From: a bacterium
GTDB lineage: Bacteria > Patescibacteriota > CPR2 > UBA1875 > JAJYID01
Direction of reading: 5' to 3'
NCBI GenBank assembly: GCA_030647205.1
Contig: JAUSJO010000002.1
Coordinates: forward strand, 305,771 to 369,770
DNA length: 64,000 nt
The notes beneath the pieces are model-generated. The model ran no database searches, was not told where the DNA came from, and saw only the letters and a list, made by a program, of their open reading frames with translations. Positions within the stretch are counted from its first letter, which is position 1; every line of letters begins with the position of its first letter. The position numbers were made by a program, and so were the translations under genes. Shown in pieces: positions 4,208-64,000 of this stretch.

Positions 4208-4311
4208 GTCTTGAAAAAAAATGTTTTTATGTTATAATGAATTTGCGAGGGGTTTCTTTTTAAGAAGCTTTTTGTTTTTTGTACCTTAAATCTTTAGTGA
4301 GAGGAGGAATC

Positions 4312-4803
4312 ATGTTTTTTAGGCGCGGGAGAAAGAATGAAGAAAAACATGATACCGATAAAATAGACCAAATCATTGATCATGAGATCCAAAATGTTGA
4401 AGAGGTGGTAAAAAAGAAATCTGATGATTATCATGTTTGTCCCATGCCGGATTGCGAATCTGATTTTGTTTATTCGGTTGAAAGATACCAGATAAATGAT
4501 ACTGAGTGGAAAGTTCGCTTACTTTGTCCAAACTGTTGGAACCAAAGAACAGTGATAGTCGGTCGTGAAACGGTACGAAAGTTACTTGCGAGTGCTAGGG
4601 CGGGGCGCGAACGAATCATGAAGGATCTGGACCATATGCAGAAAAAGCATATGGAAGAGGAGGTCGAAAAGTTCATTACGGCTTTGCAAAAAGACTACAT
4701 CTTGCCTGATGACTTTACTCCTCCCTCAAGCACAAAGAAGAATGTTAATGAAGGTTGGATAAAGGACCTTGAAAGAGCGAGAGGTCTTCATTCCTCCAAA
4801 TAA
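4312..4803 (+). CDS. small zinc-ribbon protein, paralog 1 (CPxPDC…CPNC)
   Basis: GAGGAGG RBS precedes the ATG at 4312. Two Cys pairs are present, and the C-terminus is conserved with the 5022 ORF (…KKHMEEEVEKFITALQKDYILPDDF). A TGTTATAAT box lies at 4230-4238. Confidence 0.55.
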   Translation: MFFRRGRKNEEKHDTDKIDQIIDHEIQNVEEVVKKKSDDYHVCPMPDCESDFVYSVERYQINDTEWKVRLLCPNCWNQRTVIVGRETVRKLLASARAGRERIMKDLDHMQKKHMEEEVEKFITALQKDYILPDDFTPPSSTKKNVNEGWIKDLERARGLHSSK

Positions 4804-5021: not shown

Positions 5022-5336
5022 ATGGAGAAATTTTCGGAGCAAATAAACGAGTACCAAACATGTCTCTTTTGCGGATCGAATCTGGTATATCCCGTAGAAA
5101 GGACACAGCTAAACGAAAACGGATGGAAAGTAGCCGTTAGGTGCCCAAACTGTTTTGGCTTTCGAGTTGAATGTATGCATCGGGATGTGATGGTGGGGCT
5201 AATAAGGAATGCAAACAAGGGCCGCGAAGACCTCGCGAAAACGTTCAATCAAATGGCGAAAAAGACCATGGAAGAAGAATCTGACAAGATGATCTCAGCG
5301 CTTCATAGAGACCAGATCTTGCCAATAGATTTCTAA
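5022..5336 (+). CDS. small zinc-ribbon protein, paralog 2 (CLFC…CPNC)
   Basis: AGGAGG RBS is present, and the protein aligns end-to-end with the 4312 ORF (VERxQxNxxxWKVxxxCPNC…MEEE…ALxxDxILPxDF). A TGGTATAAT box lies upstream at 4887-4895. Confidence 0.6.
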   Translation: MEKFSEQINEYQTCLFCGSNLVYPVERTQLNENGWKVAVRCPNCFGFRVECMHRDVMVGLIRNANKGREDLAKTFNQMAKKTMEEESDKMISALHRDQILPIDF

Positions 5337-5419: not shown

Positions 5420-5749
5420 ATGACAGTTGATATTGGACAATCAAAGATAGAAGATCTGGCGGTTTGCCCCATCTGTCATTTCAAAACAGTAGTTGCCGAC
5501 TACTATCTCGAAGAGCAGGGTTCTTATACCATTCGTTGTCACTGTGACAACTGTGGTGAGGACTTCGGGAGAAACTACTTCACGCTCGATGAGGGGGTAG
5601 AAGCAATAAGGCTATATGGCAGAGATGAGTTCTATCGAGGGCCGACAAGAGTGGCCGAGGACGATTTCCTCAGAGACCTTAAACATCTGAGCGAAATGGA
5701 CAAAACGTCCACTCCGGTAACGATCGGAATGTTCCTAAAGGTTCCATGA
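5420..5749 (+). CDS. small zinc-ribbon protein, distant third member (CPICH…CDNC)
   Basis: AGGAGG RBS is present. A CxxC…CxxC ribbon is followed by an acidic DDFLRDL tail. Confidence 0.5.
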   Translation: MTVDIGQSKIEDLAVCPICHFKTVVADYYLEEQGSYTIRCHCDNCGEDFGRNYFTLDEGVEAIRLYGRDEFYRGPTRVAEDDFLRDLKHLSEMDKTSTPVTIGMFLKVP

Positions 5750-9246: not shown

Positions 9247-9322
9247 CGGGGTGTGGCGCAGTTGGTAGCGCGCAGCGTTCGGGACGCTGAGGTCGGAAGT
9301 TCGAATCTTCTCACCCCGACCA
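9247..9322 (+). tRNA. tRNA-Pro (anticodon CGG)
   Basis: Folds as a cloverleaf by hand: acceptor CGGGGTG/CACCCCG, D-stem GCGC, anticodon stem CAGCG/CGCTG with loop TTCGGGA, T-loop TTCGAAT, and an encoded CCA. Confidence 0.85.
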
Positions 9323-21419: not shown

Positions 21420-21853
21420 AAAAGTTTCATATGTTGACGAGCTGATGATTCCTTGGAGAAACTGAGTAATTTTTTTATTCATTACTATCTCCAGAAAACT
21501 CTTGCCGTTGAGGCAGAATTTCCCTATTATAGTAGTAATGTTTTAGCTTTAAACCTAAAGAATAATTTTTCGGGGGGCGATTGAAGTATAAAGAACGTAA
21601 GGTAAAGAGCACGAAAAGTAAGATTATAGCATACATAGCAAGGTGTTCGGCTTTTGTATGTAAAAATACTGAGCAGTCTTGTAGTTTAGCTAAGCACTCA
21701 TGGCTATGCCGTGAAAAGAAGGTAGTAGTCTTCCCTATTAGGGAGTTACTTAAGGTATTTTATTTCTTAAAAAATATATTTGTTCTCCTGCGTCTTGTTT
21801 ACTATGAACTGCTTTATTTCGCACACTTAAGGGTTAGATTCTTACATGATCAG

Positions 21854-24800
21854 ATGTATCAAGGTAATAAGACCTATAAAAAAGTAAATGATTTTAAGTA
21901 TACAAGGCCTATTCGCAAGGCAACAATCCTGGGGTTTGTTATATCGTTTTTCATTTTTCAGGTTATGGGAAGTCTCTGGCCGGAGATTTTTAACCCCGCC
22001 CACCCCAAGGTAGCAGAAGGCGGAAGCAACACTGTTACTTGGACGACAGATGCTGACTTTAACGCAGGCACTACTAAAAGCGGTGTTAAGGTTCAGAGTG
22101 ACAGTGTGACGCTAAATGATCCTGATATTATCCCTGAAGTAAAAGCGTCTGGGAATGACCTCTATGCCGTTCGCTTTTTGGATACTAATAATGGATACGC
22201 AGTTGGAATGAGCGGCCTTCTTTTAAAAACTATAGATGGCGGTGTCAACTGGTCAACAAAAAACCCGGGAACTAGTAATAATTTAAATGAAATTTATATA
22301 GTAGATGCTAACATATCTTATGTGGTGGGAGATGGCGGTGTCATTAGGAAAACGACAGACAGCGGAACGACATGGGCCACTCAAACTTCCGGAACAACAA
22401 ATAACTTAAATGGCGTTTACTTTACAGACGCAAACACCGGTTATGTGGTTGGAGATTCTGGAACAATCAAAAAAACCACAGATGGGGGTACAAACTGGGT
22501 TGCCCAGACTTCAGGGACAACCTATGCCTTTGAGGATATCTTTTTTGTCGGTGGTAGTACAGGATATGCTGCCGGATCAAACGGGTCTATATATAAAACT
22601 TTAGACGGAGGCACAAACTGGGTTATCCAGGCTACAGCAGCCGGTACTTCTTATAATTCAATATACTTCACAGACGCAAATACGGGTTATGCACCAGGTA
22701 ATATTGTTCTTAAAAAAACCACAGACGGAGGCACAAACTGGACCACCAACTACTCACTTAGCGGGAACACATGGTATGGGGTACACTTTGCTGACGCAAA
22801 TACTGGTTACGTGAGTGGTTCTAGTGGCAAGGTAAGAAAAACTATAAATTCGGGTACAAGCTGGACAGATCAGACTACGGGGTTTGGAGCGGGTAATGTT
22901 TATGACATTTACTTTACAGATGCTAATAACGGTTATGCAGTCGGGGCTAGCGGCAAGATTATAAAAACCACGAATGGCGGTGCAAACTGGACTTTGAAAA
23001 CTTTGAGTGTGACAGGTAACAACCTAAATAGTACTTACTTCACAGACTCAAATACCGGCTATGCAGTAGGGAACTCGGGCACTATCTTAAAAACTACAAA
23101 TGGTAGCGCGAGTTGGTCGGCCCTAACGTCTGGGACGTCAAGCGTCTTAAATGGTGTTTACTTTACGGATAACAATACTGGATACGCGGTTGGTGCAAGT
23201 GGTCTTATAAGGAAAACCACAGATGGGGGAGCGAACTGGGTTGCCCAGACTTCAGGGACAACCTATGCCTTATATGGCATACATTTTACAGATGCAAGTA
23301 CCGGGTATACAACGGGGGATAATGGGACGATATTAAAAACCACAGATGGGGGAGCGAACTGGGTTGCCCAGACTTCAGGGACGACGGGCTATTTTAGGGA
23401 CGTTTACTTCACAGATGCTAACACCGGCTTTCTTGCAGGAAGATACGGTATATACAAGACCACAAATGGGGGCACAAACTGGTCTTCAGTCTCTGGCTCT
23501 GATATCTATTTAAACAGCATGTATTTTACAGATGCAAATACCGGATATGCAGTCGGTAACAGTGGGACAATCATAAAAACCACAAATGGTGGTGCAAACT
23601 GGGCTGCCCAGACCTCAGGGACGACAAATCAGTTAAATAGTACTCATTTTACAAGTGCTAGCACTGGTTACATAGTTGGTGTTAACGGTACTATTCTTGA
23701 GACAAATGATGGGGGCACAAACTGGTCGTTGACGTCTGTGGGTACGTCTTTAAGTAGCGTTTATTTTACAGATGCTAACACCGGTTATGCAGTTGGTAGT
23801 ACTGGGTTTATTTTGAAGTTTTATCCTCAATATGCTACTTCGGGGGATATCTCTGGACTTAAGGTAGATGCAGGAGAAGGGGCAAAGGCGAACTGGTCTA
23901 GTATCACCAATAGCTCAACACTACTATCTAATACGTCAGTAAGTTTTCAGACAAGAGGCTCAGACGATAACTCTACTTGGTCCGGGTGGCAATCTCTAAG
24001 CGGTGAGACGATCCAAACTGCGGAGTATAGATATTTAGAAGTCAAAGCAACTTTGTCAACTTCTGACGGGCTACACACCCCATCGCTTAATGATCTTACG
24101 GTTACTTATGACAATCTCGAAGCCCCAGTAAATAGTAATATCACTTTAACAAAAACTGATGGTACGGCACTTAAAACAAGTGCGGGGGATGACCTGGCTG
24201 GCGGTGTAGCCGGAGGCTGGACAAATGCAACCACTGTTAGGTTAACGGCAACCGGCTTAACATGTGGGCAAGGAACTCCTGAAAATCCGACCTGTGGTTC
24301 AAGCTCGACAAACAGAAGACCTGAGGTTGAAATCAAAGAAATGGGAACTGTTTTTGATGGGGCTGTAACATATGAGGCAGTTAGTGGTAATAGCTATGTG
24401 GATGTGGCCTTGCCGGGGATTCCAGTCACAGGACAAGAATATCATATACGTGCAAGGAGTATTGACGATGAGGGCAAAGCGTCTGGATGGACTCAATATG
24501 CTAGCGATACTGCGGCTATTACGTATGATAATACTCCCGCAGGAGTATTTAATATCTCTACGCCCGCAGATAATAACTGGGGGACGGCAAGACCTACCTT
24601 TACTTGGGCTAGCACCTCTGATGCTAACTCTGGTATCAATAAATACCAGCTATACATAGATGGCGCACTAGATACCGACAATATTTCGGCGGTAGCCACT
24701 TCAGTTCAGGCAACAAACTCACTTATTGATGGAAGTCATACTTGGTATGTAAAGGCTGTCGATAATGCCGGTAATGCAAGGCAATCAACCAGTACATTTA

Positions 24801-27800
24801 CAGTCAATATAGACACTAGTGCACCGACATCATTCAACTTATCGACCCCGGCGAACAATTCATGGACAAACAACACTGGACCCACCCTGACATGGACAGC
24901 TTCTTCTGACCCGCATTCGGTCTTAGCAAAATACCAACTATATATCAACGGTAGCTTAAATAGAGACAACATTTCTTCAGTTGCTACCTCAACTACACCA
25001 ACAGGGTCTCAAACAGGAACATACTCATGGTATATAAAAGCAATAAATAATGCCGGCGGTGAGACAAATTCGGCGACCTATACTATCAACTATGACAACG
25101 CAGCCACATTCCCGTCACCTTTTGTAGCCAGCAGCAATGATGCGGAAAAGGTAGTCGTCTCATGGTCAGATCAAAATACAGGCGCTCCGACTGATACGTT
25201 CACAGTTCACAGGGTTAAGAAGTCAGAGTATGATAGTAACTCTTGGACAAAGGACAGTGATTGGAGTACAGGAACGGATTATGGCGTCTTTACAATTGCA
25301 GGAGGGGTTGGCGTCCTAAATGACAGTTCTCTTGGAGCGGTTCAAGGTCAGCCAATCATCTCTCAGTCGGTAAATTATGTCTACAAAATAAAATCAACGG
25401 ATACAGCTGGTAACGCATCCGGTTGGTCCAGCGTTGTTATCGGAAGAACAACCGATACAGCCGATCCTCAGGATCCATCTACCGTGACAGCAGTTGCTTG
25501 TGACGGAACGGCTCCGAACTGTTCAAACATTCTCAATAAGGGCTATGAAATCAAGCTGGCTTGGGCGGCCTCCAATGATTTTGGTTCAGGAGTGACCGGT
25601 TATAAAGTTTATAGAAATACGGCAAACTCTACAGATCCAAGTACATTTGCACTGGTCGGATATCTCGATGTACCAACACCGGGGGCTCCTGTTAGTACTG
25701 TCTACTATGATAATGACGCAAACAATGATAAACACGATTTCACTGACACTATAAATGAACAACAGGTAAGTATAAAAGCTGCCGCAACAGGGAGATTAAA
25801 TGATTACGTTAACTACTATTATAGGATAGTGGCGGTGGACGCTGTAGGAAACGAGACCAACATTATTACAACTGAAGGGCTAGGGTTACCAAACTACACT
25901 AACTATGCCACCGCAAGGACCCCTGACGTAACTTCTCCTTCGACCCCTCAGAATGTAGTTGTTACGCCTATGGGCCTTGACTCATCTGGTGGCGCTCAGC
26001 GAGTTGATGTTACCTGGAGTACTTCAACTGATATTACCAGTAGAAACGCAGGAGCAAGCGGTTCCGGGATTGCCGGATATAAAGTGATGCAATGTCAGGG
26101 TGACGGCACATTCTGTACTGATGATGGTAACTATAGTCAAATTGGTACAACATCCTCGACTAACTACACGAAAGAAGGCCTTGGAGAGTTCACTTGGTAT
26201 TACTATAAAATTATTGCTGTAGACAAGGCATCGTCAGCAACTATAACAGATACTTCTAATAACAGTTCAGCAAGAAGCTCATCGGCCTCAGTAAAAACAG
26301 CTTCAAATACAGTGCCAACGGTACCACTTTCCGTGAATGTAACGACAAAAACCGGTGATCCAAATACAGATAGCGATGTTGGTCATCAAAATACTGTTAC
26401 ATTTAACGGGTCATATGCCAAAAACTGTGCCGGTGGTGAACGCTGTGTTACGGGATACGAGATTTATCGCTCTACTGATAACTTTGCTTCAAGTTCGTTA
26501 AAAATTGCAGACGTTTCTATAGGTGCAGTTGGGGATGAAAGGAGTGTCACTTATACCTATATAGATAATAACTCGACGAACGATGCAACGGCGCCATCGA
26601 TTTCCAGAAGTTCAGGCGGAACTCCAGCTTTGAGTAAAGCACAAACCGCTCATTTGGTTGATGCAGCGACATATTATTATAAAGTGAAATCAAAAGACAA
26701 CACTCCAACAGTTCCCGACGGAGGACCATTTACTTCAGGCATGTCTTCGGTGGCTGTCGGTACTCTTCATGCTGGTTGGGATACAACCCCAGATGCAACA
26801 GATCCAGATGTCCCCCAAAGTGTAGCTGTAAAAAATATTCATCCAAATGACTCAATGGTTAGAAATATTATCACATGGACAATGATTCCGGATTCTACCA
26901 GAAACGGAACAAGTGACTTCTCAAAGTACCAGATCTATCGTTATGAGGTTCTGTTGGGCAGTGGTACGGCGACACTTATTGCAGAGAAAACTGATCGGGG
27001 AGATAACTATCATGTTGACGGGATTACAAACGGCCAAAAGGATAAAGATTATGCATATTATGTTGTAGCGGTAGACAATGCAGGGACAGACTTCAAATAT
27101 GCAAACGGGCAAATCATAAATCCTACATCCAACACGAGCAGCCATATAGCAACAGTTTCGATAAATCCTGGGGCAGTGAATCCTAGCGTATCAGGCACTA
27201 CAGTTGCGAGCACGGGCGTATCATCTGCTACTATAAACTGGTCTACGAACCAAGAGACAGATTCATTGGTAGAGTATAAGGTAAAAGATTCAAATGATGT
27301 GATTGCGGCAGGGAAAGACAGAACCCAACCGACAACAAGCCATTCTGTCTCCCTAGGAAACTTGAGCAAAGGTGTTGCTTACCAATATAGGATTGTCAGC
27401 CGTAACTCACTTGGTAATATTGATGAGTCTGCCGCAAATACATGGAAAGAGTTCTCAACCCAGGATTTTTATATATCAGATAATACTGTTTTGACCACTA
27501 CATCTACGGCGACTATAAGTTGGAACACAAACATCGACTCTGACTCATATGTGGAGTATAAACCGGAAGGATCATCAGAAAAGTATGAGGTTGCCGGTGA
27601 TGCTGTTCCGACGAAAAACCACGAGGTAACACTTAAGGGTTTGGTGCCGAACAGTCATTATACATATAATCTTCGTTCCGTCACTTCTGATAAATATATT
27701 GTTACAAAAAATCTCGATACCTTTAAAACCCGCGACAACGATCTCGATAAATTCAGAATTACACCGGGGGAAACCAATGTTTCGGAACAAAATATTACGG

Positions 27801-28726
27801 CGACTACAACTCAGATTACATGGACCACAACGGTTGCGACTACTTCATGGGTTGAGTATGGAACTGAGGTTGGAGTTTACTCGATGAGCGCCGGTGATAA
27901 TGATTTAAATACCCTGCATGCTGTTAAACTCACAAACTTGAGGCCAGGGACAAAGTACTTCTATAGAGTAAGGGGCAAAGATGAAAATGGTGTTGAACTC
28001 TTCTCGCCGGAATCATCATTTACTGCTATACTTATGCCCGAGATTTCAAACCTCAAAGTTAGAGACTTTAGCCCGTATACAGCAACGATTACATTTGATA
28101 CAAACGTTGAAACAGTTGTATCACTAAACTACGGCAAAGACACTAGCTATGGGTCAAGCGTGACTGTCGCAAAAGCGGAGAAAAATCACGTCATTACTCT
28201 TAAAGAACTTGACGATAACGCAACATATCATTTCCAGGCGTCTGCTACGGATCAGTTCAAAAACAATATTAAGTCTTCCGATATGATATTCTCAACCCCG
28301 CTTGATACCCAAGGACCGGAGGTGTCGGAGCTCAAAGTTGATGTTTTGCCTGTTTCTGACGCATCAGAGACAGCATCGGTTATCATTTCCTGGACAACAG
28401 ATAAGCCTGCAACAACGCAGGTGGAGTACGATGACAAGGGTGGCGGGGAAAAATATGAAAACCACACTATAGAAAACGCTACCTTAAATACGTCTCATAC
28501 GGTTTTGATCAAAGACCTAAATACATCGGCTAACTATAGATTTAGGATTATATCTAAGGATAAGAGAAATAATCTGACCAAAACGAAAGCTTCAAACTTT
28601 ATCACCCCGACAAAAGAAAAGTCACTGCTTCAGATAATTATAAAATCATTCGAAGATACATTTTCTTGGACAAAGAATGTTCCGCAGTTTTTTGGTAAAA
28701 TAGGAAATCGGCTAATGGGTCAATAG
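21854..28726 (+). CDS. giant cell-surface protein (2,291 aa): signal anchor, ~20 Ycf48/BNR-like Asp-box beta-propeller repeats, then Fn3-like and purple-acid-phosphatase-N-like domain arrays
   Basis: Repeats of type YAVGxSGxIxKTTDGGxNW(x)QTSGTT run from ~22150 to 23750. The remainder is Ser/Thr-rich. About six modules of type TxATISWxTNxxSDSxVEYxxxxS…YxYRxxS run from 26700 to 28500. The start is taken at ATG 21854 (MYQGNK…, followed by an anchor helix). The in-frame ORF extends upstream to 21581. Confidence 0.8.
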   Translation: MYQGNKTYKKVNDFKYTRPIRKATILGFVISFFIFQVMGSLWPEIFNPAHPKVAEGGSNTVTWTTDADFNAGTTKSGVKVQSDSVTLNDPDIIPEVKASGNDLYAVRFLDTNNGYAVGMSGLLLKTIDGGVNWSTKNPGTSNNLNEIYIVDANISYVVGDGGVIRKTTDSGTTWATQTSGTTNNLNGVYFTDANTGYVVGDSGTIKKTTDGGTNWVAQTSGTTYAFEDIFFVGGSTGYAAGSNGSIYKTLDGGTNWVIQATAAGTSYNSIYFTDANTGYAPGNIVLKKTTDGGTNWTTNYSLSGNTWYGVHFADANTGYVSGSSGKVRKTINSGTSWTDQTTGFGAGNVYDIYFTDANNGYAVGASGKIIKTTNGGANWTLKTLSVTGNNLNSTYFTDSNTGYAVGNSGTILKTTNGSASWSALTSGTSSVLNGVYFTDNNTGYAVGASGLIRKTTDGGANWVAQTSGTTYALYGIHFTDASTGYTTGDNGTILKTTDGGANWVAQTSGTTGYFRDVYFTDANTGFLAGRYGIYKTTNGGTNWSSVSGSDIYLNSMYFTDANTGYAVGNSGTIIKTTNGGANWAAQTSGTTNQLNSTHFTSASTGYIVGVNGTILETNDGGTNWSLTSVGTSLSSVYFTDANTGYAVGSTGFILKFYPQYATSGDISGLKVDAGEGAKANWSSITNSSTLLSNTSVSFQTRGSDDNSTWSGWQSLSGETIQTAEYRYLEVKATLSTSDGLHTPSLNDLTVTYDNLEAPVNSNITLTKTDGTALKTSAGDDLAGGVAGGWTNATTVRLTATGLTCGQGTPENPTCGSSSTNRRPEVEIKEMGTVFDGAVTYEAVSGNSYVDVALPGIPVTGQEYHIRARSIDDEGKASGWTQYASDTAAITYDNTPAGVFNISTPADNNWGTARPTFTWASTSDANSGINKYQLYIDGALDTDNISAVATSVQATNSLIDGSHTWYVKAVDNAGNARQSTSTFTVNIDTSAPTSFNLSTPANNSWTNNTGPTLTWTASSDPHSVLAKYQLYINGSLNRDNISSVATSTTPTGSQTGTYSWYIKAINNAGGETNSATYTINYDNAATFPSPFVASSNDAEKVVVSWSDQNTGAPTDTFTVHRVKKSEYDSNSWTKDSDWSTGTDYGVFTIAGGVGVLNDSSLGAVQGQPIISQSVNYVYKIKSTDTAGNASGWSSVVIGRTTDTADPQDPSTVTAVACDGTAPNCSNILNKGYEIKLAWAASNDFGSGVTGYKVYRNTANSTDPSTFALVGYLDVPTPGAPVSTVYYDNDANNDKHDFTDTINEQQVSIKAAATGRLNDYVNYYYRIVAVDAVGNETNIITTEGLGLPNYTNYATARTPDVTSPSTPQNVVVTPMGLDSSGGAQRVDVTWSTSTDITSRNAGASGSGIAGYKVMQCQGDGTFCTDDGNYSQIGTTSSTNYTKEGLGEFTWYYYKIIAVDKASSATITDTSNNSSARSSSASVKTASNTVPTVPLSVNVTTKTGDPNTDSDVGHQNTVTFNGSYAKNCAGGERCVTGYEIYRSTDNFASSSLKIADVSIGAVGDERSVTYTYIDNNSTNDATAPSISRSSGGTPALSKAQTAHLVDAATYYYKVKSKDNTPTVPDGGPFTSGMSSVAVGTLHAGWDTTPDATDPDVPQSVAVKNIHPNDSMVRNIITWTMIPDSTRNGTSDFSKYQIYRYEVLLGSGTATLIAEKTDRGDNYHVDGITNGQKDKDYAYYVVAVDNAGTDFKYANGQIINPTSNTSSHIATVSINPGAVNPSVSGTTVASTGVSSATINWSTNQETDSLVEYKVKDSNDVIAAGKDRTQPTTSHSVSLGNLSKGVAYQYRIVSRNSLGNIDESAANTWKEFSTQDFYISDNTVLTTTSTATISWNTNIDSDSYVEYKPEGSSEKYEVAGDAVPTKNHEVTLKGLVPNSHYTYNLRSVTSDKYIVTKNLDTFKTRDNDLDKFRITPGETNVSEQNITATTTQITWTTTVATTSWVEYGTEVGVYSMSAGDNDLNTLHAVKLTNLRPGTKYFYRVRGKDENGVELFSPESSFTAILMPEISNLKVRDFSPYTATITFDTNVETVVSLNYGKDTSYGSSVTVAKAEKNHVITLKELDDNATYHFQASATDQFKNNIKSSDMIFSTPLDTQGPEVSELKVDVLPVSDASETASVIISWTTDKPATTQVEYDDKGGGEKYENHTIENATLNTSHTVLIKDLNTSANYRFRIISKDKRNNLTKTKASNFITPTKEKSLLQIIIKSFEDTFSWTKNVPQFFGKIGNRLMGQ

Positions 28727-42906: not shown

Positions 42907-43126
42907 ATCTATTAGTATTTCAGTACAAAAAAAGGAGGGGTAACAAATCTGGAAATTCCAATGCTTGGGATAGACAGAGCAGTATTATTTTGTGCGTTAA
43001 AAATACTAACAGATGAATGGGACCTTGAAAATCGAAAAGTAGAGAAAATTTAAATCACGTCAATGTAAATCTTGAGTAATTTATTACTCATAAACTTTTA
43101 GGAAATTTTTTAAAATTTCCATTTTT

Positions 43127-44579
<1,453 letters not shown>

Positions 44580-44806: not shown

Positions 44807-44883
<77 letters not shown>

Positions 44884-45180: not shown

Positions 45181-45256
45181 GGGCCCTTAGCTCAGTTGGT
45201 AGAGCGCCTCGCTTGCACCGAGGAGGTCAGGAGTTCGAACCCCCTAGGGTCCACCA
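45181..45256 (+). tRNA. tRNA-Ala (anticodon TGC)
   Basis: Acceptor GGGCCCT with the G3:U70 Ala identity pair, anticodon loop CTTGCAC, encoded CCA. There is one A·C mismatch in the T-stem as I read it. Confidence 0.85.
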
Positions 45257-61094: not shown

Positions 61095-61181
61095 GGCAAA
61101 ATACCGTTATGAAAGCAAAATAACCTTGATAAAAAGCATAAATTGTAGTATAATTTTTTATTCTTAAGTTAAGGTTGTGAA

Positions 61182-62456
61182 ATGAAGATATTGATTACAG
61201 CAGGCGGGACTATTTCTAGGATCGATGACGTCAGGCACATCGGTAACTTCAGCTCGGGCTCTTTCCCATCAAAAATAGCAGAGGTGGCTCTCCAGAAGAA
61301 ACACGAGGTTATTTATCTTCATGCAAAGAAGGCTCGGACACCTTTTGATGCACAAAATGTTTTGGATCTGAATGAGGCGATAAAGATGAGTAAGGAAGAT
61401 CTGAAGAAAAAATATTTAGATATCCAGAGTCTAGAGTCAAACTTGAGACTGGCCTCATTTGAAACGGTAGACGAGTATATGCAGTCAGTGGAAAAGATCC
61501 TTAAGAAAGAAAAAGTAGATGTCATTTTTCTGGCGGCGGCTGTTTCTGATTATTCTCCCCCGAAGGTAGAAGGGAAGATCTCGTCTGACAAAGAAAAACT
61601 GACTATAGAACTTAAAAGAACTCCTAAGGTAATAAAACATATCAAAAAATGGGCTCCAAATCCTATCTTTCAGGTTGGATTTAAGCTTCTCTCAGGAGTT
61701 TCCGAGGAAGAGCTCGCGGAAGCTGCGTACAAGTCGGGGCTAGAAAACAAGTCAAATTTGACAGTTGCGAACGATCTTGAAAAGATCAAGAATGGTGCAA
61801 GGGAAGTTTTTTTGGTTACTCCGGAAAAGGGAAAAATTAAGATAAAAGAACCTGATGTCTCAAAGAAAGTTTTTGAGTTTGTCGAAAAAAGAGCAAAGAC
61901 AACATTTTTTAAAACTAAGGTTGAGGCGGAAAGGGGTTTAGAACTAAAGTTTGAGAAACTCTTTGCTGAGATGAAAGAAGCGGTTGCAGAACTTTACGAA
62001 AGAAATTTGCTTGAAGAGTTTTATTCGGGAAGCGGACATTTCCATGGGAGCGTTTCTCTAAGGGTCGATGAGGATAAGTTTTTAATAACGGGGAGAGAGA
62101 CGGATAAAAGAAACCTTAAATCTGAAGAAATAGCTTTGGTTGATAAGGTTGATCTGAAAAAAAGAGAAGTTTTTACGAGATCGCTTAGCGGTAAAAAACC
62201 ATCTCTAAATGCTGTACTTTCTTTCGAAATATTCAAGAAATTCCCCGAAGCAAATGTTATTGTCCATACTCATAGCAAAGTTCCAAAAATCCCAGAAACT
62301 TCTTTTGCTTACCCTCCGGGGACCTTGGAATATAGTTTAGGTCCGATAGAGCTTCTAAAAAAATCGAGGATGGTTAGCTTGAAGGATCATGGGCAGGTTA
62401 CAATAGGTCAAGATTTAAAGGAAACGGTGGATTATGTCACAAAAAATGTTAAATAG
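61182..62456 (+). CDS. coaB: fusion protein: phosphopantothenate--cysteine ligase (CoaB/DFP domain) + class II aldolase/adducin-like domain
   Basis: The N-terminus (ILITAGGTISRIDDVRHIGNFSSGSF…FLAAAVSDY…VGFKL…LTVANDL) matches the CoaB motif TAGxTxExIDPVRFIxNxSSG. The C-terminal ~190 aa carry VIVHTHS…LKDHGQVTIGQDLKETVDYV (class II aldolase HxH zinc site and NHG-type block). Confidence 0.65.
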   Translation: MKILITAGGTISRIDDVRHIGNFSSGSFPSKIAEVALQKKHEVIYLHAKKARTPFDAQNVLDLNEAIKMSKEDLKKKYLDIQSLESNLRLASFETVDEYMQSVEKILKKEKVDVIFLAAAVSDYSPPKVEGKISSDKEKLTIELKRTPKVIKHIKKWAPNPIFQVGFKLLSGVSEEELAEAAYKSGLENKSNLTVANDLEKIKNGAREVFLVTPEKGKIKIKEPDVSKKVFEFVEKRAKTTFFKTKVEAERGLELKFEKLFAEMKEAVAELYERNLLEEFYSGSGHFHGSVSLRVDEDKFLITGRETDKRNLKSEEIALVDKVDLKKREVFTRSLSGKKPSLNAVLSFEIFKKFPEANVIVHTHSKVPKIPETSFAYPPGTLEYSLGPIELLKKSRMVSLKDHGQVTIGQDLKETVDYVTKNVK

Positions 62457-63195
62457 TTTAGATGGAAACGCATATGAGGATTTTCCTGAATACTACGATC
62501 TTTTGTACCAAAGATACTTTAAAAGCGTTCCCAAATTTATCTCTCTGATTGAAACAGAGACGAAAAAAGGATGGAAACTGCTTGAAATAGCGGCAGGAAC
62601 AGGTGAGGTTGTTATCCCTCTTTTGGAGGATGGTTATGATGTGACGAGTTTTGATTTAAATGAGGGGATGCTAAAAGAACTTCAAAAAAAGGCGAGCATA
62701 AAGGGTTTAGCGGCAAAGGTGATACATGGGGATATGAATGAGATAGACTTCTTAGAAGCTTTTGACCTTATTTACATGCGGCAGTCTATAAACTATTTTC
62801 TAGGAGAAAACAATCTTCAAAACGGATTAAAGAAAATCAACAGAGCCTTGAAGCCTGGTGGTAAGTTTATCTTTAATGCTCCAAACTTTAGGAAAGAGCA
62901 ACCAGATTATCCCGTAGTAAAAAATATTTATGAATATGGAGATAGATATGCTTTTGTTTTGGAGACAAATGAACTTGACGGAAGGATTCTAAAACACGCT
63001 CAGGATTCGATCGTTTGGAAAGACGGAGGGCAGCCTAGATATATCAAGGATTCAAATGATTTTTATATGTATACAAAAGAGGAGTTCGATAAAAGTCTAG
63101 AAAAGGCGGGATTTCCAGAGAGAAAAATCTTGGGAGGAGACTTAAGGGTGTATAAGGAAGATAGTAAAACTATCTATGGAGTGGCTAAAAAATGA
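62434..63195 (+). CDS. class I SAM-dependent methyltransferase
   Basis: Motif I LEIAAGTGEV is present, with motif II/post-I blocks (DVTSFDL; FDLIYM). Confidence 0.7.
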   Translation: MSQKMLNSLDGNAYEDFPEYYDLLYQRYFKSVPKFISLIETETKKGWKLLEIAAGTGEVVIPLLEDGYDVTSFDLNEGMLKELQKKASIKGLAAKVIHGDMNEIDFLEAFDLIYMRQSINYFLGENNLQNGLKKINRALKPGGKFIFNAPNFRKEQPDYPVVKNIYEYGDRYAFVLETNELDGRILKHAQDSIVWKDGGQPRYIKDSNDFYMYTKEEFDKSLEKAGFPERKILGGDLRVYKEDSKTIYGVAKK

Positions 63196-64000
63196 GTTTA
63201 TCAGAAAAAATATGGTTTGATGGGAAAATAGTTGATAAGGCAGATGCGAATGCATTCTTCTTTAACCAAGCGTTGAACTTCGGAGCAAGTGTTTTTGACG
63301 GAATCAGAATATATGATACAAAAAATGGTCCATGTCTTTTCAGGATTGATGACCATATAGATAGGTTCTTTTATTCTCTTCATGCCTTGAGGATGAAATC
63401 GGGTTTTTCTAAGGAGGACTTGAAAAGAGCGGTTATAGAGATTGCCAAAGAAAATAAGATTACCAGCGGTTATGTCCGTCCGCTCTCTTTCTACTCAGAA
63501 CCAAAAATGGGGATCAATATTTTGGACTCTAAAGTTAGCACAGCCATCCTTACTTGGCCATGGGACGATGGTTCAAGGCAAAAGCCAGTTACTGTAAAAA
63601 TCTCCAAATATAAAAGACTTTCACCCGAGAGTGCTGATCTACGGGCAAAGATCGGAGGGTATTATGCACCTGGAATCTTAGCTTTTATAGATGCTAGAGA
63701 AGCCGGATATGATCTCCCTATGATGCTTGATGAAAATGGAAATATTGCCGAAGGAGCAGTCAGTAACTTTTTCTTTGTTAAAGACGGAAAGCTTTACGTT
63801 CCAAGGGCCGATAAGATTCTCGAGGGCATTACCAGCAGCACAATTGTTTCTTTGGCTGAAGATTTGGGGATAGAGGTAATATTGGCAGACTTTAGCCCGG
63901 AAGATCTAAAGAGTGCTGAAGAAGCATTTTTCACGAGTACCGGCGCGAAGCTCCAGCAAATAGAAAGGATTGAATCATTTTTCACTTCTAAAGGCTTTGA
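63192..64000 (+). CDS. ilvE: class IV (branched-chain amino acid / D-amino acid) aminotransferase, 3' end beyond the window
   Basis: Hand translation from ATG 63192, overlapping the upstream stop in an ATGA arrangement. Conserved blocks FDGIRIY, FRIDDHIDRF, YVRPLSFY, GGYYAPGILA and AEGAVSNFFFVKDGKLYVP are present. No stop codon before 64000. Confidence 0.7.
   Translation, partial: MSLSEKIWFDGKIVDKADANAFFFNQALNFGASVFDGIRIYDTKNGPCLFRIDDHIDRFFYSLHALRMKSGFSKEDLKRAVIEIAKENKITSGYVRPLSFYSEPKMGINILDSKVSTAILTWPWDDGSRQKPVTVKISKYKRLSPESADLRAKIGGYYAPGILAFIDAREAGYDLPMMLDENGNIAEGAVSNFFFVKDGKLYVPRADKILEGITSSTIVSLAEDLGIEVILADFSPEDLKSAEEAFFTSTGAKLQQIERIESFFTSKGF

What the first reader, a model, noticed from the sequence alone, without database searches (positions are those of the whole stretch)
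61182..62456. CoaB fused to a class-II-aldolase/adducin-like domain instead of the flavoprotein CoaC
The N-terminal 235 aa carry the CoaB signatures (ITAGGTxxxIDxVRxIxNxSSG, AAAVSDY, VGFK, ANDL). The C-terminal 190 aa carry class II aldolase family hallmarks: the HTHS zinc site and DHGQVTIGQDL, corresponding to the NHGxxxxG block. In most bacteria CoaB is fused to the FMN-dependent PPC decarboxylase CoaC. Members of the class II aldolase fold catalyse aldol cleavage, epimerisation, dehydration and decarboxylation. This fusion may therefore be a non-flavin replacement for CoaC, or a new CoA-pathway side reaction, in an organism with reduced cofactor metabolism.
Basis: partly seen in the sequence, partly recalled or inferred. 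Interest (0 to 1): 0.55.

Follow-up and report, generated by a model that had tools for sequence, protein, structure and literature searches.

The report
CoaB–aldolase-like fusion in conserved module
The gene really does fuse a coenzyme-A ligase (CoaB) to a metal-binding aldolase-like domain, but that domain works alongside the usual flavin decarboxylase CoaC rather than replacing it, as part of a widespread multi-enzyme module whose chemistry nobody has characterised.

Summary

The "non-flavin CoaC replacement" idea is not supported. In relatives the aldolase-like (ALD) domain sits in the same operon as a CoaC flavoprotein (9 loci), or in the same polypeptide (P0157 CoaC-CoaB-ALD, P0247 CoaC-CoaB-ALD-MTase).

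The gene is the first cistron of a translationally coupled operon: fusion, SAM methyltransferase, IlvE. It belongs to a recurrent module: CoaB + ALD + MTase (or GNAT) + an aminotransferase (IlvE or class I/II) ± Amidohydro_2 ± CoaC. The module occurs in CPR bacteria, DPANN archaea, and as a four-domain protein in Naegleria, Mastigamoeba and a diplonemid.

My best reading (about 0.5): a working PPCS-type ligase coupled to an accessory, still unknown lyase, methylation and transamination branch. The main rival (about 0.25): a paralogous pathway to a non-CoA cysteine-derived compound. I found no literature on it.

The parts
61126..61154 (+). sigma-70-like promoter candidate (TTGATA-17-TATAAT) in the 87-nt gap upstream of the fusion gene
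   Evidence: Best match (11/12) of the 56-64 kb scan; sequence read. It is a consensus match only and was not tested.
61182..61886 (+). CoaB / PPCS-type ligase domain (aa 1-235) of the fusion protein
61887..62456 (+). Linker helix plus class II aldolase-fold (MtnB/FucA-like) domain (aa 236-424). His362/His364/His403 form the metal site; Asn343 replaces FucA Glu73; Arg305, Lys309, Ser341 and Glu383 are conserved.
62434..63195 (+). Class I SAM-dependent methyltransferase. It overlaps the fusion gene by 23 nt and is the same unit that forms the third domain in about 37 homologue clusters.
   Evidence: Methyltransf_25/11/12 E=1e-16 to 1e-18. Best NCBIfam hit is the daptide N-MTase. PDB: 1wzn, then the N-methyltransferases TylM1, GSMT, CypM, MtfA and CcbJ. 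Junction read.
63192..64000 (+). Branched-chain amino acid aminotransferase IlvE (fold type IV). Its ATG overlaps the MTase stop (ATGA). The gene is cut by the window end (269 of 298 aa).
   Evidence: Full gene seen in L001 12011-12907. TIGR01122 245.8 bits against a cutoff of 245.55. Translation and junction. The same gene order occurs in L005, L007, L008, L011 and L048.

Best explanation
The ORF encodes a bifunctional enzyme.

The N-terminal domain is a catalytically intact PPCS-type ligase. The mechanism is inferred from the family: a carboxylate, most likely 4'-phosphopantothenate, is activated with CTP as an acyl-cytidylate (Lys132, Asp123-bound cation). It is then attacked by the amino group of L-cysteine (Asn22, Arg18).

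The C-terminal domain is a class II aldolase-fold metalloenzyme. It has a three-His site (His362/364/403) and an anion-binding pocket (Arg305, Lys309, Ser341), but Asn replaces the usual Glu base. I therefore infer that it polarises an alpha-hydroxy or alpha-oxo carbonyl of a phosphorylated or carboxylated small molecule for a lyase-type step (dehydration, decarboxylation or aldol chemistry). I do not think it performs the flavin-type oxidative decarboxylation of phosphopantothenoylcysteine.

The gene heads a translationally coupled operon: fusion, SAM methyltransferase, IlvE. It is one version of a recurrent module: CoaB + ALD + MTase (or GNAT) + aminotransferase ± Amidohydro_2 ± CoaC.

The most likely role is an accessory branch physically coupled to the CoaB/CoaC steps of CoA synthesis. 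That branch would make or tailor a substrate for the ligase, in lineages that lack the known routes to phosphopantothenate.

Shown: the domain identities, residue conservation, operon structure, and co-occurrence and co-fusion with CoaC, MTase/GNAT and aminotransferases.

Inferred: the substrates and the chemistry of the ALD, MTase and aminotransferase steps.
For: Domains and folds.

CoaB residues: G8, D15, R18, N22, G26, A120, D123, K132, F167 and N197 are invariant in 32 canonical CoaB/CoaBC and at least 98% conserved in 42 family members. R18, N22, D123 and K132 map to M. smegmatis R207, N211, D281 and the KxKK loop (PMC7794376).

Phylogeny: standalone DPANN CoaBs that sit next to CoaC nest inside the fusion clade.

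CoaC linkage: operons in L009, L010, L019-L022, L046, L054 and L086. Single-chain CoaC-CoaB-ALD(-MTase) in P0157 and P0247. P0157 passes the CoaBC equivalog cutoff.

ALD site: His362/364/403, Arg305, Ser341 and Gly289/380/404 are invariant across all subtypes.

MTase, GNAT and aminotransferase linkage: three-domain fusions; four-domain AT-CoaB-ALD-MTase proteins; IlvE downstream in 6 loci and a class I/II aminotransferase upstream in 5 loci; GNAT in the MTase position (P0084, P0117, L023, L043) or as the next gene (L086).

Operon structure: promoter candidate and overlapping junctions.

Background: PoK and PPS are missing in Nanoarchaeota and related DPANN (PMC6650551).
Against: The CoaB domain scores far below the curated PPCS equivalog cutoffs (146 vs 265; 130 vs 217). 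It has family-specific invariant residues (T213, E215, R237) and lacks two positions common in canonical CoaB.

No coaC, coaD-like or coaE-like gene is in the 64-kb window.

The module occurs in protists that probably have a standard PPCS, which I did not check. Its CoaB part is degenerate in a diplonemid and absent in Naegleria lovaniensis, so ALD-MTase can stand without the ligase.

Planctomycetes carry a close standalone CoaB-like gene without an adjacent CoaC.

No concrete CoA-pathway reaction is known that needs an aldolase-fold enzyme, an N-methyltransferase-like enzyme and a transaminase.
Confidence: 0.5

Rival explanations
1. The module is a paralogous pathway that does not make CoA. 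The aminotransferase makes an amino acid. The MTase or GNAT caps its amine. The CoaB-like ligase joins a carboxylate to cysteine. Where a CoaC-like flavoprotein is present, it decarboxylates the product to a cysteamine amide. The end product would be a new small thiol or amide metabolite. The parts list resembles EgtA-E: ligase, three-His metal enzyme, hydrolase, SAM N-methyltransferase, PLP enzyme.
For: CoaB equivalog cutoffs are not met, and there are family-specific invariant residues. The MTase's nearest characterised relatives are N-methyltransferases of primary amines, and it is interchangeable with GNAT. Aminotransferases are fused or adjacent. Four-domain proteins occur in Naegleria, Mastigamoeba and a diplonemid. 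Planctomycete CoaB-like genes have no adjacent CoaC and are paired with a UxaC-like gene. The literature says many DPANN lack the remainder of the CoA pathway. The DPANN-type flavoprotein (L003) lacks the PAMN Asn and the ACG Cys clamp (sequence).
Against: P0157 is indistinguishable from a housekeeping CoaBC. The CoaCs of L002 and L054 have complete PPC-decarboxylase motifs. All PPCS catalytic residues are conserved. A dedicated secondary pathway is less expected in about 1-Mb genomes. No role for ALD follows from this model either.
Confidence: 0.25
2. The C-terminal domain is a methionine-salvage enzyme (MtnB, methylthioribulose-1-phosphate dehydratase, or a DHAP-shunt aldolase). It would be co-encoded with a SAM-using methyltransferase and the transaminase that regenerates methionine from its keto acid. 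The fusion to CoaB would then be incidental or regulatory.
For: The best curated hit for ALD is MtnB (TIGR03328, E=7.8e-10). The best PDB sequence match is Aquifex aq_1979. A homologue is annotated MtnB in Microgenomates OLB22. From general knowledge, both IlvE-type and class I aminotransferases catalyse the last salvage step in different bacteria. An APH-family kinase lies upstream in the window.
Against: The score is far below the MtnB cutoff (38.6 vs 137). The Glu of the MtnB-like 'KPSAE' motif is Asn here. No MtnA, MtnC, MtnD, MtnN or MtnP homologue was seen in any of about 25 neighbourhoods. The APH kinase does not recur and has its own transcription context. Methyltransferases release SAH, not MTA. 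The persistent fusion to CoaB and CoaC across three domains of life is left unexplained.
Confidence: 0.08
3. The aldolase-like domain is a non-catalytic oligomerisation or regulatory scaffold, like the adducin head domain, that organises CoaB dimers.
For: The catalytic Glu73 is lost. In Saccharimonadia, ALD is attached to a degenerate CoaB half next to an intact CoaB, and in a diplonemid the CoaB part is degenerate. Both suggest a structural coupling of the two folds.
Against: The three His ligands plus Arg305, Ser341, Lys309 and Glu383 are invariant or nearly so across subtypes that share only 19-45% identity. That pattern is typical of an active site.
Confidence: 0.08
4. One reading: the class II aldolase-fold domain is a non-flavin phosphopantothenoylcysteine decarboxylase that replaces CoaC.
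For: No CoaC lies within the window or in the flanks read (5-10 kb on each side) of any two-domain-fusion locus. The fold does include decarboxylases: OtnC, PhtC and HMPDdc appear as weak hits or structural neighbours.
Against: ALD and CoaC coexist in one chain (P0157, P0247) and in 9 operons. From established knowledge of HFCD enzymes, decarboxylating the cysteine moiety requires transient oxidation of the thiol, which a Lewis-acid metal site does not provide. ALD also persists where CoaB is degenerate or absent.
Confidence: 0.04

Closest known systems
Monofunctional phosphopantothenate-cysteine ligase CoaB (Streptococcus/Enterococcus type; PDB 2GK4; TIGR02114, NF005231)
   Different: It scores at about half of the equivalog cutoffs. 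It is fused to a C-terminal aldolase-fold domain. It has family-specific invariant residues (T213, E215, R237). There is no adjacent coaC in this genome region.
Bifunctional CoaBC (Dfp; TIGR00521)
   Same: It contains the same ligase domain. Relatives of the fusion exist as CoaC-CoaB-ALD (P0157), which pass the CoaBC cutoff.
   Different: The window protein has no flavoprotein domain. An aldolase-fold domain is attached at the C-terminus of CoaB, whereas CoaC sits at the N-terminus in CoaBC. So ALD is an addition, not a positional swap.
Methylthioribulose-1-phosphate dehydratase MtnB / Aquifex aq_1979 (PDB 2IRP), human APIP (4M6R)
   Same: These are the best sequence-level relatives of the ALD domain. 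They share the HxH...H metal site and the 'ITxxGxxK' and 'KPS' motifs.
   Different: The Glu after 'KPS(A)' is Asn. Arg305 replaces the Ser/Thr of the phosphate loop. The score is 38.6 against a cutoff of 137. There is no methionine-salvage gene context.
L-fuculose-1-phosphate aldolase FucA and L-ribulose-5-phosphate 4-epimerase AraD
   Different: FucA Glu73 (metal ligand and base) is Asn343. The FucA phosphate-site residues are only partly kept: Ser71 aligns with Ser341, and Thr43 aligns with Arg305.
Three-, four- and alternative-domain relatives of this same family (CoaB-ALD-MTase; AT-CoaB-ALD-MTase such as Naegleria gruberi XP_002670424.1; CoaB-ALD-GNAT)
   Same: They share the CoaB and ALD signatures. 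The window encodes the MTase and the aminotransferase as the next two genes.
   Different: The domains are split into three translationally coupled genes here, and the aminotransferase is IlvE (fold type IV) instead of class I/II. All of these relatives are uncharacterised.

Membership tests
PPCS / CoaB (PF04127; NF005231, TIGR02114) | Pfam DFP domain above the gathering score | tested here: met
   109 bits against 22
PPCS / CoaB (PF04127; NF005231, TIGR02114) | Score above the curated equivalog cutoff | tested here: not met
   146.2 vs 265, 130.2 vs 217.2, and TIGR00521 92.5 vs 219.7
PPCS / CoaB (PF04127; NF005231, TIGR02114) | Invariant catalytic and nucleotide-binding residues (GGT..D.VR..N.S.G, AAV.D, catalytic Lys, F(K), AN) | tested here: met
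   All 10 columns invariant in 32 canonical sequences are conserved. They map to Msm R207, N211, D281 and the Lys loop.
PPCS / CoaB (PF04127; NF005231, TIGR02114) | PPCS fold | tested here: met
PPCS / CoaB (PF04127; NF005231, TIGR02114) | Genomic partnership with PPC decarboxylase CoaC | tested here: inconclusive
   There is none in this window or in L001. In family relatives it is present in 9 operons and 2 fusion architectures. The rest of the genome could not be read (one search was inconclusive).
PPCS / CoaB (PF04127; NF005231, TIGR02114) | Ligation of 4'-phosphopantothenate to L-cysteine | not testable with these tools
   Needs an enzyme assay or complementation.
Class II aldolase / adducin N-terminal domain (PF00596) | Pfam domain above the gathering score, and the fold | tested here: met
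Class II aldolase / adducin N-terminal domain (PF00596) | Three His metal ligands (FucA His92, His94, His155) | tested here: met
   H362, H364 and H403 are invariant in A1 and A2 and align to the FucA HxH and HHG motifs.
Class II aldolase / adducin N-terminal domain (PF00596) | Acidic fourth ligand and base (FucA Glu73, AraD Asp76) | tested here: not met
   Asn343 in the window protein and in the main family. It is Asp in the GNAT and Woesearchaeota subtypes, Gly in Saccharimonadia, and Glu only in the P0157 type.
Class II aldolase / adducin N-terminal domain (PF00596) | Phosphate-binding residues (FucA Asn29, Thr43, Gly44, Ser71, Ser72) | tested here: inconclusive
   Ser341 (FucA Ser71) is invariant. 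Thr43 aligns with Arg305, and Ser72 aligns with Leu. An anion site is likely, but its ligand is unknown.
MtnB, methylthioribulose-1-phosphate dehydratase (TIGR03328) | Equivalog score and methionine-salvage gene context | tested here: not met
   38.6 vs 137.05. No Mtn genes in any neighbourhood.
HFCD flavoprotein / CoaC (PF02441) | Flavoprotein domain in this protein, or any equivalent in the window | tested here: not met
   No PF02441 hit in the ORF. No tblastn or phmmer hit in the window.

The most novel reading that the evidence does not exclude
AT-CoaB-ALD-MTase (± CoaC, ± Amidohydro_2, ± NUDIX) is a previously unrecognised biosynthetic pathway shared by CPR bacteria, DPANN archaea and some protists. 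It would be one of two things. It could be a route that supplies or tailors the phosphopantothenate-like substrate of CoaB in organisms lacking PanB-E/PanK and PoK/PPS. Or it could be the synthesis of a new N-methylated or N-acetylated cysteine- or cysteamine-containing small molecule, in which a class II aldolase-fold three-His metal centre carries out new chemistry.
Probability: 0.4. Interest if true: 0.8.

Novelty: new variant of a known kind. Interest (0 to 1): 0.55.

Why it matters
How ultra-small CPR and DPANN cells obtain CoA is unresolved, because the known routes to 4'-phosphopantothenate are reported missing in many of them. This work identifies a conserved enzyme set that is repeatedly fused: ligase, three-His metal enzyme, methyl- or acetyl-transferase, aminotransferase, amidohydrolase and CoaC. 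It gives concrete, clonable candidates for a missing branch of CoA metabolism or for a new thiol metabolite. It also corrects public annotations that call these proteins 'phosphopantothenoylcysteine decarboxylase' or 'MtnB'. The presence of the same architecture in Naegleria and Mastigamoeba offers experimentally tractable hosts.

Tried and rejected
1. Searched the window and L001 for CoaC and Amidohydro_2 by tblastn and phmmer, using seeds from L002 and L003. Nothing was found.

2. Regex search for CoaD (HxGH) and small P-loop CoaE-like ORFs in the window. None were found, but 64 kb cannot decide the question.

3. Tried to find this genome's CoaC indirectly, by matching 'longest contig' values (428,588; 76,098; 112,368; 58,764; 156,329) among homologues of a CPR CoaC. 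There was no match among the 120 of 1744 hits listed, so the result is inconclusive. It does show that PPCDC-type flavoproteins are common in Patescibacteria.

4. Eight literature searches on the fusion, on CoA metabolism in CPR and DPANN, and on the Naegleria and Mastigamoeba accessions. None found a description of the fusion.

5. The upstream APH-family kinase was considered as an MtnK, PanK or homoserine-kinase analogue. I rejected it as part of the module: it does not recur in any other locus, and a promoter-like site separates it from the fusion gene.

6. A SpeH-type AdoMet decarboxylase lies next to the GNAT variant in L043. It occurs only once and is not part of the module.

7. The unknown 136-aa, 200-aa and 275-aa neighbours either have no recurrent relatives or no Pfam or NCBIfam hit.

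8. The N-terminal 'X' domain of the Woesearchaeota X-ALD protein was tested as a degenerate CoaB. hhalign did not support this, whereas it did for Saccharimonadia.

9. Amidohydro_2 profile against PDB gave only weak hits to uncharacterised hydrolases and non-oxidative decarboxylases, so no function could be assigned.

10. Speculative chemistries were considered but left unsupported: ketopantoate from valine-derived ketoisovalerate by aldol addition; double C-methylation of 4-hydroxy-2-oxobutanoate; Zn-activated thiol methylation; an ergothioneine-like logic.

Full report
**Observation.** The ORF at 61182-62456 (+) is real: ATG start, 424 aa.
- Pfam finds the CoaB domain (PF04127, E=3.4e-31) over the N-terminal about 235 aa and Aldolase_II (PF00596, E=1e-15) in the C-terminal part.
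- An AlphaFold2 model built on a 42-sequence family alignment is confident (pLDDT 94.8, pTM 0.91).
- The fusion is not an assembly or frameshift artefact. The identical protein is in NCBI (P0001, misnamed 'phosphopantothenoylcysteine decarboxylase'). About 29 clusters of the same two-domain architecture and about 37 clusters with an added C-terminal methyltransferase are among the top 120 homologues.

**Is the N-terminal domain a real CoaB?**
- It aligns end to end with the monofunctional CoaB models, but at about half their curated cutoffs (146 vs 265; 130 vs 217).
- I aligned 42 family members with 32 canonical CoaB/CoaBC sequences taken from fetched loci. All ten columns invariant in the canonical set (G8, D15, R18, N22, G26, A120, D123, K132, F167, N197) are at least 98% conserved in the fusion family.
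- According to PMC7794376, these include the equivalents of M. smegmatis R207 (proposed to orient cysteine), N211, D281 (cation ligand) and the Lys loop.
- Differences exist. There are family-specific invariants (T213, E215, R237), and a Glu and a Lys common in canonical enzymes are lost.
- In a neighbour-joining tree, standalone DPANN CoaBs that lie next to CoaC nest inside the fusion clade. Planctomycete, Coxiellaceae and Firmicutes CoaBs are successive outgroups.
- I conclude the ligase chemistry is intact. The identity of the acyl substrate cannot be settled computationally.

**The aldolase-like domain.**
- Across all subtypes, including standalone versions, His362, His364, His403, Arg305, Ser341 and three Gly are invariant. 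Lys309, Lys339 and Glu383 are nearly so.
- A family profile matches Aquifex aq_1979 (MtnB-like; 5e-15), FucA (about 1e-9), AraD, and more weakly APIP, TqaM, NovR and adducin.
- In that alignment the family's 'KAS-L-N' lies on FucA 'LPS-S-E73'. The metal-ligand and base Glu is therefore Asn343 here. It is Asp in the GNAT and Woesearchaeota subtypes, Gly in Saccharimonadia, and Glu only in the P0157 type.
- This is a conserved three-His metal site with a strengthened anion pocket, so it is probably catalytic. It is not a canonical aldolase, and it falls far below the MtnB cutoff (38.6 vs 137).

**Operon in the window.**
- The strongest sigma-70-like match of the 56-64 kb region (TTGATA-17-TATAAT) lies in the 87-nt gap just upstream of the gene.
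- A class I SAM methyltransferase starts 23 nt before the fusion gene's stop.
- An IlvE gene starts on the MTase stop (ATGA) and is cut by the window end. The full gene in L001 reaches the IlvE equivalog cutoff.
- The same order, fusion then MTase then IlvE, recurs in L005, L007, L008, L011 and L048.
- The upstream APH-family kinase and EamA transporter do not recur.

**The wider module.** I clustered neighbours without prior bias in 26 related loci and made further context look-ups. The recurrent partners are:
- a CoaC-type flavoprotein (10 loci);
- one orthologous Amidohydro_2 group (8 loci, plus L086);
- IlvE (6 loci);
- a class I/II aminotransferase immediately upstream (5 loci);
- NUDIX (4 loci);
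- TrmB-like or AbrB/PhoU-like regulators.

Domain fusions state the same links more strongly:
- CoaB-ALD-MTase (about 37 clusters);
- CoaB-ALD-GNAT (P0084, P0117, L023, L043);
- Aminotransferase-CoaB-ALD-MTase (P0127, P0133, P0165, P0195; in P0149 the CoaB region is degenerate and Pfam finds no DFP domain);
- CoaC-CoaB-ALD (P0157, which passes the CoaBC equivalog cutoff at 290.8 vs 219.7);
- CoaC-CoaB-ALD-MTase (P0247);
- ALD-MTase without CoaB (P0178).

The four-domain form occurs in Naegleria gruberi, Mastigamoeba balamuthi and a diplonemid. The MTase's nearest characterised relatives are N-methyltransferases acting on primary amines. That fits its exchange with GNAT and the constant presence of an aminotransferase.

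**Verdict on the interpretation.**
- If ALD replaced CoaC, the two should be mutually exclusive. Instead they share operons in five lineages and share a polypeptide in two architectures.
- The CoaCs of L002 and L054 have the full PPC-decarboxylase signature (His, PAMN, ACG clamp).
- From established knowledge of HFCD enzymes, decarboxylation of the cysteine moiety needs flavin-mediated thiol oxidation.
- I rate the replacement idea at about 0.04.
- The main rival (about 0.25) is that the module is a paralogous pathway to a non-CoA, cysteine-derived, N-capped compound. Supporting it are the sub-cutoff scores, the protist paralogues, the Planctomycete CoaB-like genes that lack an adjacent CoaC and pair instead with a UxaC-like gene, the divergent DPANN flavoprotein, and the reported absence of other CoA genes in many DPANN (PMC6650551).
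- A methionine-salvage role (0.08) and a purely structural role (0.08) are less likely.

**Limits.**
- I could not read the rest of this genome, so 'coaC, coaD and coaE elsewhere' remains untested. The window has none, and an indirect contig-length trick was inconclusive.
- No paper in the searchable library describes the fusion.
- The organism is probably a Patescibacteria (CPR) bacterium. This is inferred only from its nearest homologues and was not tested with markers.

**Novelty and interest.** The individual domains are known kinds. The conserved module and the modified aldolase-fold site are uncharacterised, so I classify this as a new variant of a known kind. Interest is moderate to high (0.55). 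The original hypothesis falls, but a repeatedly fused, cross-domain enzyme set attached to CoaB and CoaC is a concrete lead into an open question about cofactor metabolism in ultra-small cells.

Noticed in passing
P0165/P0262 (Naegleria gruberi XP_002670424.1), P0195 (Mastigamoeba balamuthi), P0149 (Namystynia karyoxenos), P0178 (Naegleria lovaniensis XP_044549049.1): Eukaryotic proteins carry the whole module as Aminotransferase-CoaB-ALD-MTase (1034-1118 aa). The diplonemid copy has a degenerate CoaB region, and N. lovaniensis has ALD-MTase only. This suggests lateral transfer and shows that ALD-MTase can function without the ligase.
   Followed up: partly
L025-L041, L045, L050 (Planctomycetes, e.g. 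Singulisphaera acidiphila NC_019892): A standalone CoaB-like gene, 36-39% identical to the window's CoaB domain, has no adjacent CoaC. It is divergently paired with a UxaC-like amidohydrolase-fold gene in 15 loci.
   Followed up: partly
L054 9650-10834 and L046 640-1866 (Saccharimonadia): A roughly 400-aa protein upstream of an intact CoaB and a canonical CoaC consists of a degenerate C-terminal half of a CoaB fold plus an ALD domain that has Gly at the Glu73 position.
   Followed up: partly
P0001 (= window 61182-62456) and relatives in public databases: Public names are inconsistent and partly wrong. NCBI uses 'phosphopantothenoylcysteine decarboxylase' although there is no flavoprotein domain. 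Other names are 'Methylthioribulose-1-phosphate dehydratase' (OLB22), 'ribulose-5-phosphate 4-epimerase/fuculose-1-phosphate aldolase' and 'methyltransferase domain-containing protein'.
   Followed up: yes
L005 10002-10918 (Microgenomates bacterium OLB22): The IlvE gene downstream of the fusion and MTase is broken into three overlapping ORFs. It is a possible pseudogene or a sequencing error.
   Followed up: no
L043 9462-9836: A SpeH-type S-adenosylmethionine decarboxylase proenzyme (ESHLTIHTWPE) lies directly upstream of a CoaB-ALD-GNAT gene in a MAG labelled Ignavibacteriales. The family was not seen in any other locus.
   Followed up: yes
window 43123-44577, 44807-44880, 45181-45253, 9247-9319: There is a complete bacterial 16S rRNA gene (1455 nt) followed by two tRNAs. 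No 23S rRNA was detected at the gathering threshold anywhere in the window, so the rRNA genes may be unlinked. A further tRNA lies at 9247-9319.
   Followed up: no
window 21581-28726 (+): A giant 2381-aa ORF has seven BNR/YCF48-like repeats, fibronectin type III, purple acid phosphatase N-terminal-like and Big_13 domains. It is probably a surface protein.
   Followed up: no
window 4279-4803, 5022-5336, 5420-5749 (+): Three neighbouring small ORFs encode paralogous Cys-rich (CxxC...CPNC) zinc-ribbon-like proteins with similar C-terminal helices. Function unknown (sequences).
   Followed up: no
L001 12932-15060 (downstream of the window end): After IlvE the contig continues co-directionally with an unannotated 136-aa ORF, a NUDIX hydrolase, a peptidase S51 and a GNAT acetyltransferase. 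NUDIX and GNAT genes are also module neighbours in archaeal loci, but these particular genes are not orthologous to those.
   Followed up: partly
L003 7445-8014 and orthologues in L019-L024, L031: The DPANN flavoprotein next to Amidohydro_2 matches the CoaC half of CoaBC (141 bits). However, it has PTMH instead of PAMN and lacks the ACG cysteine clamp found in L002 and L054. It may have altered substrate or product chemistry.
   Followed up: partly
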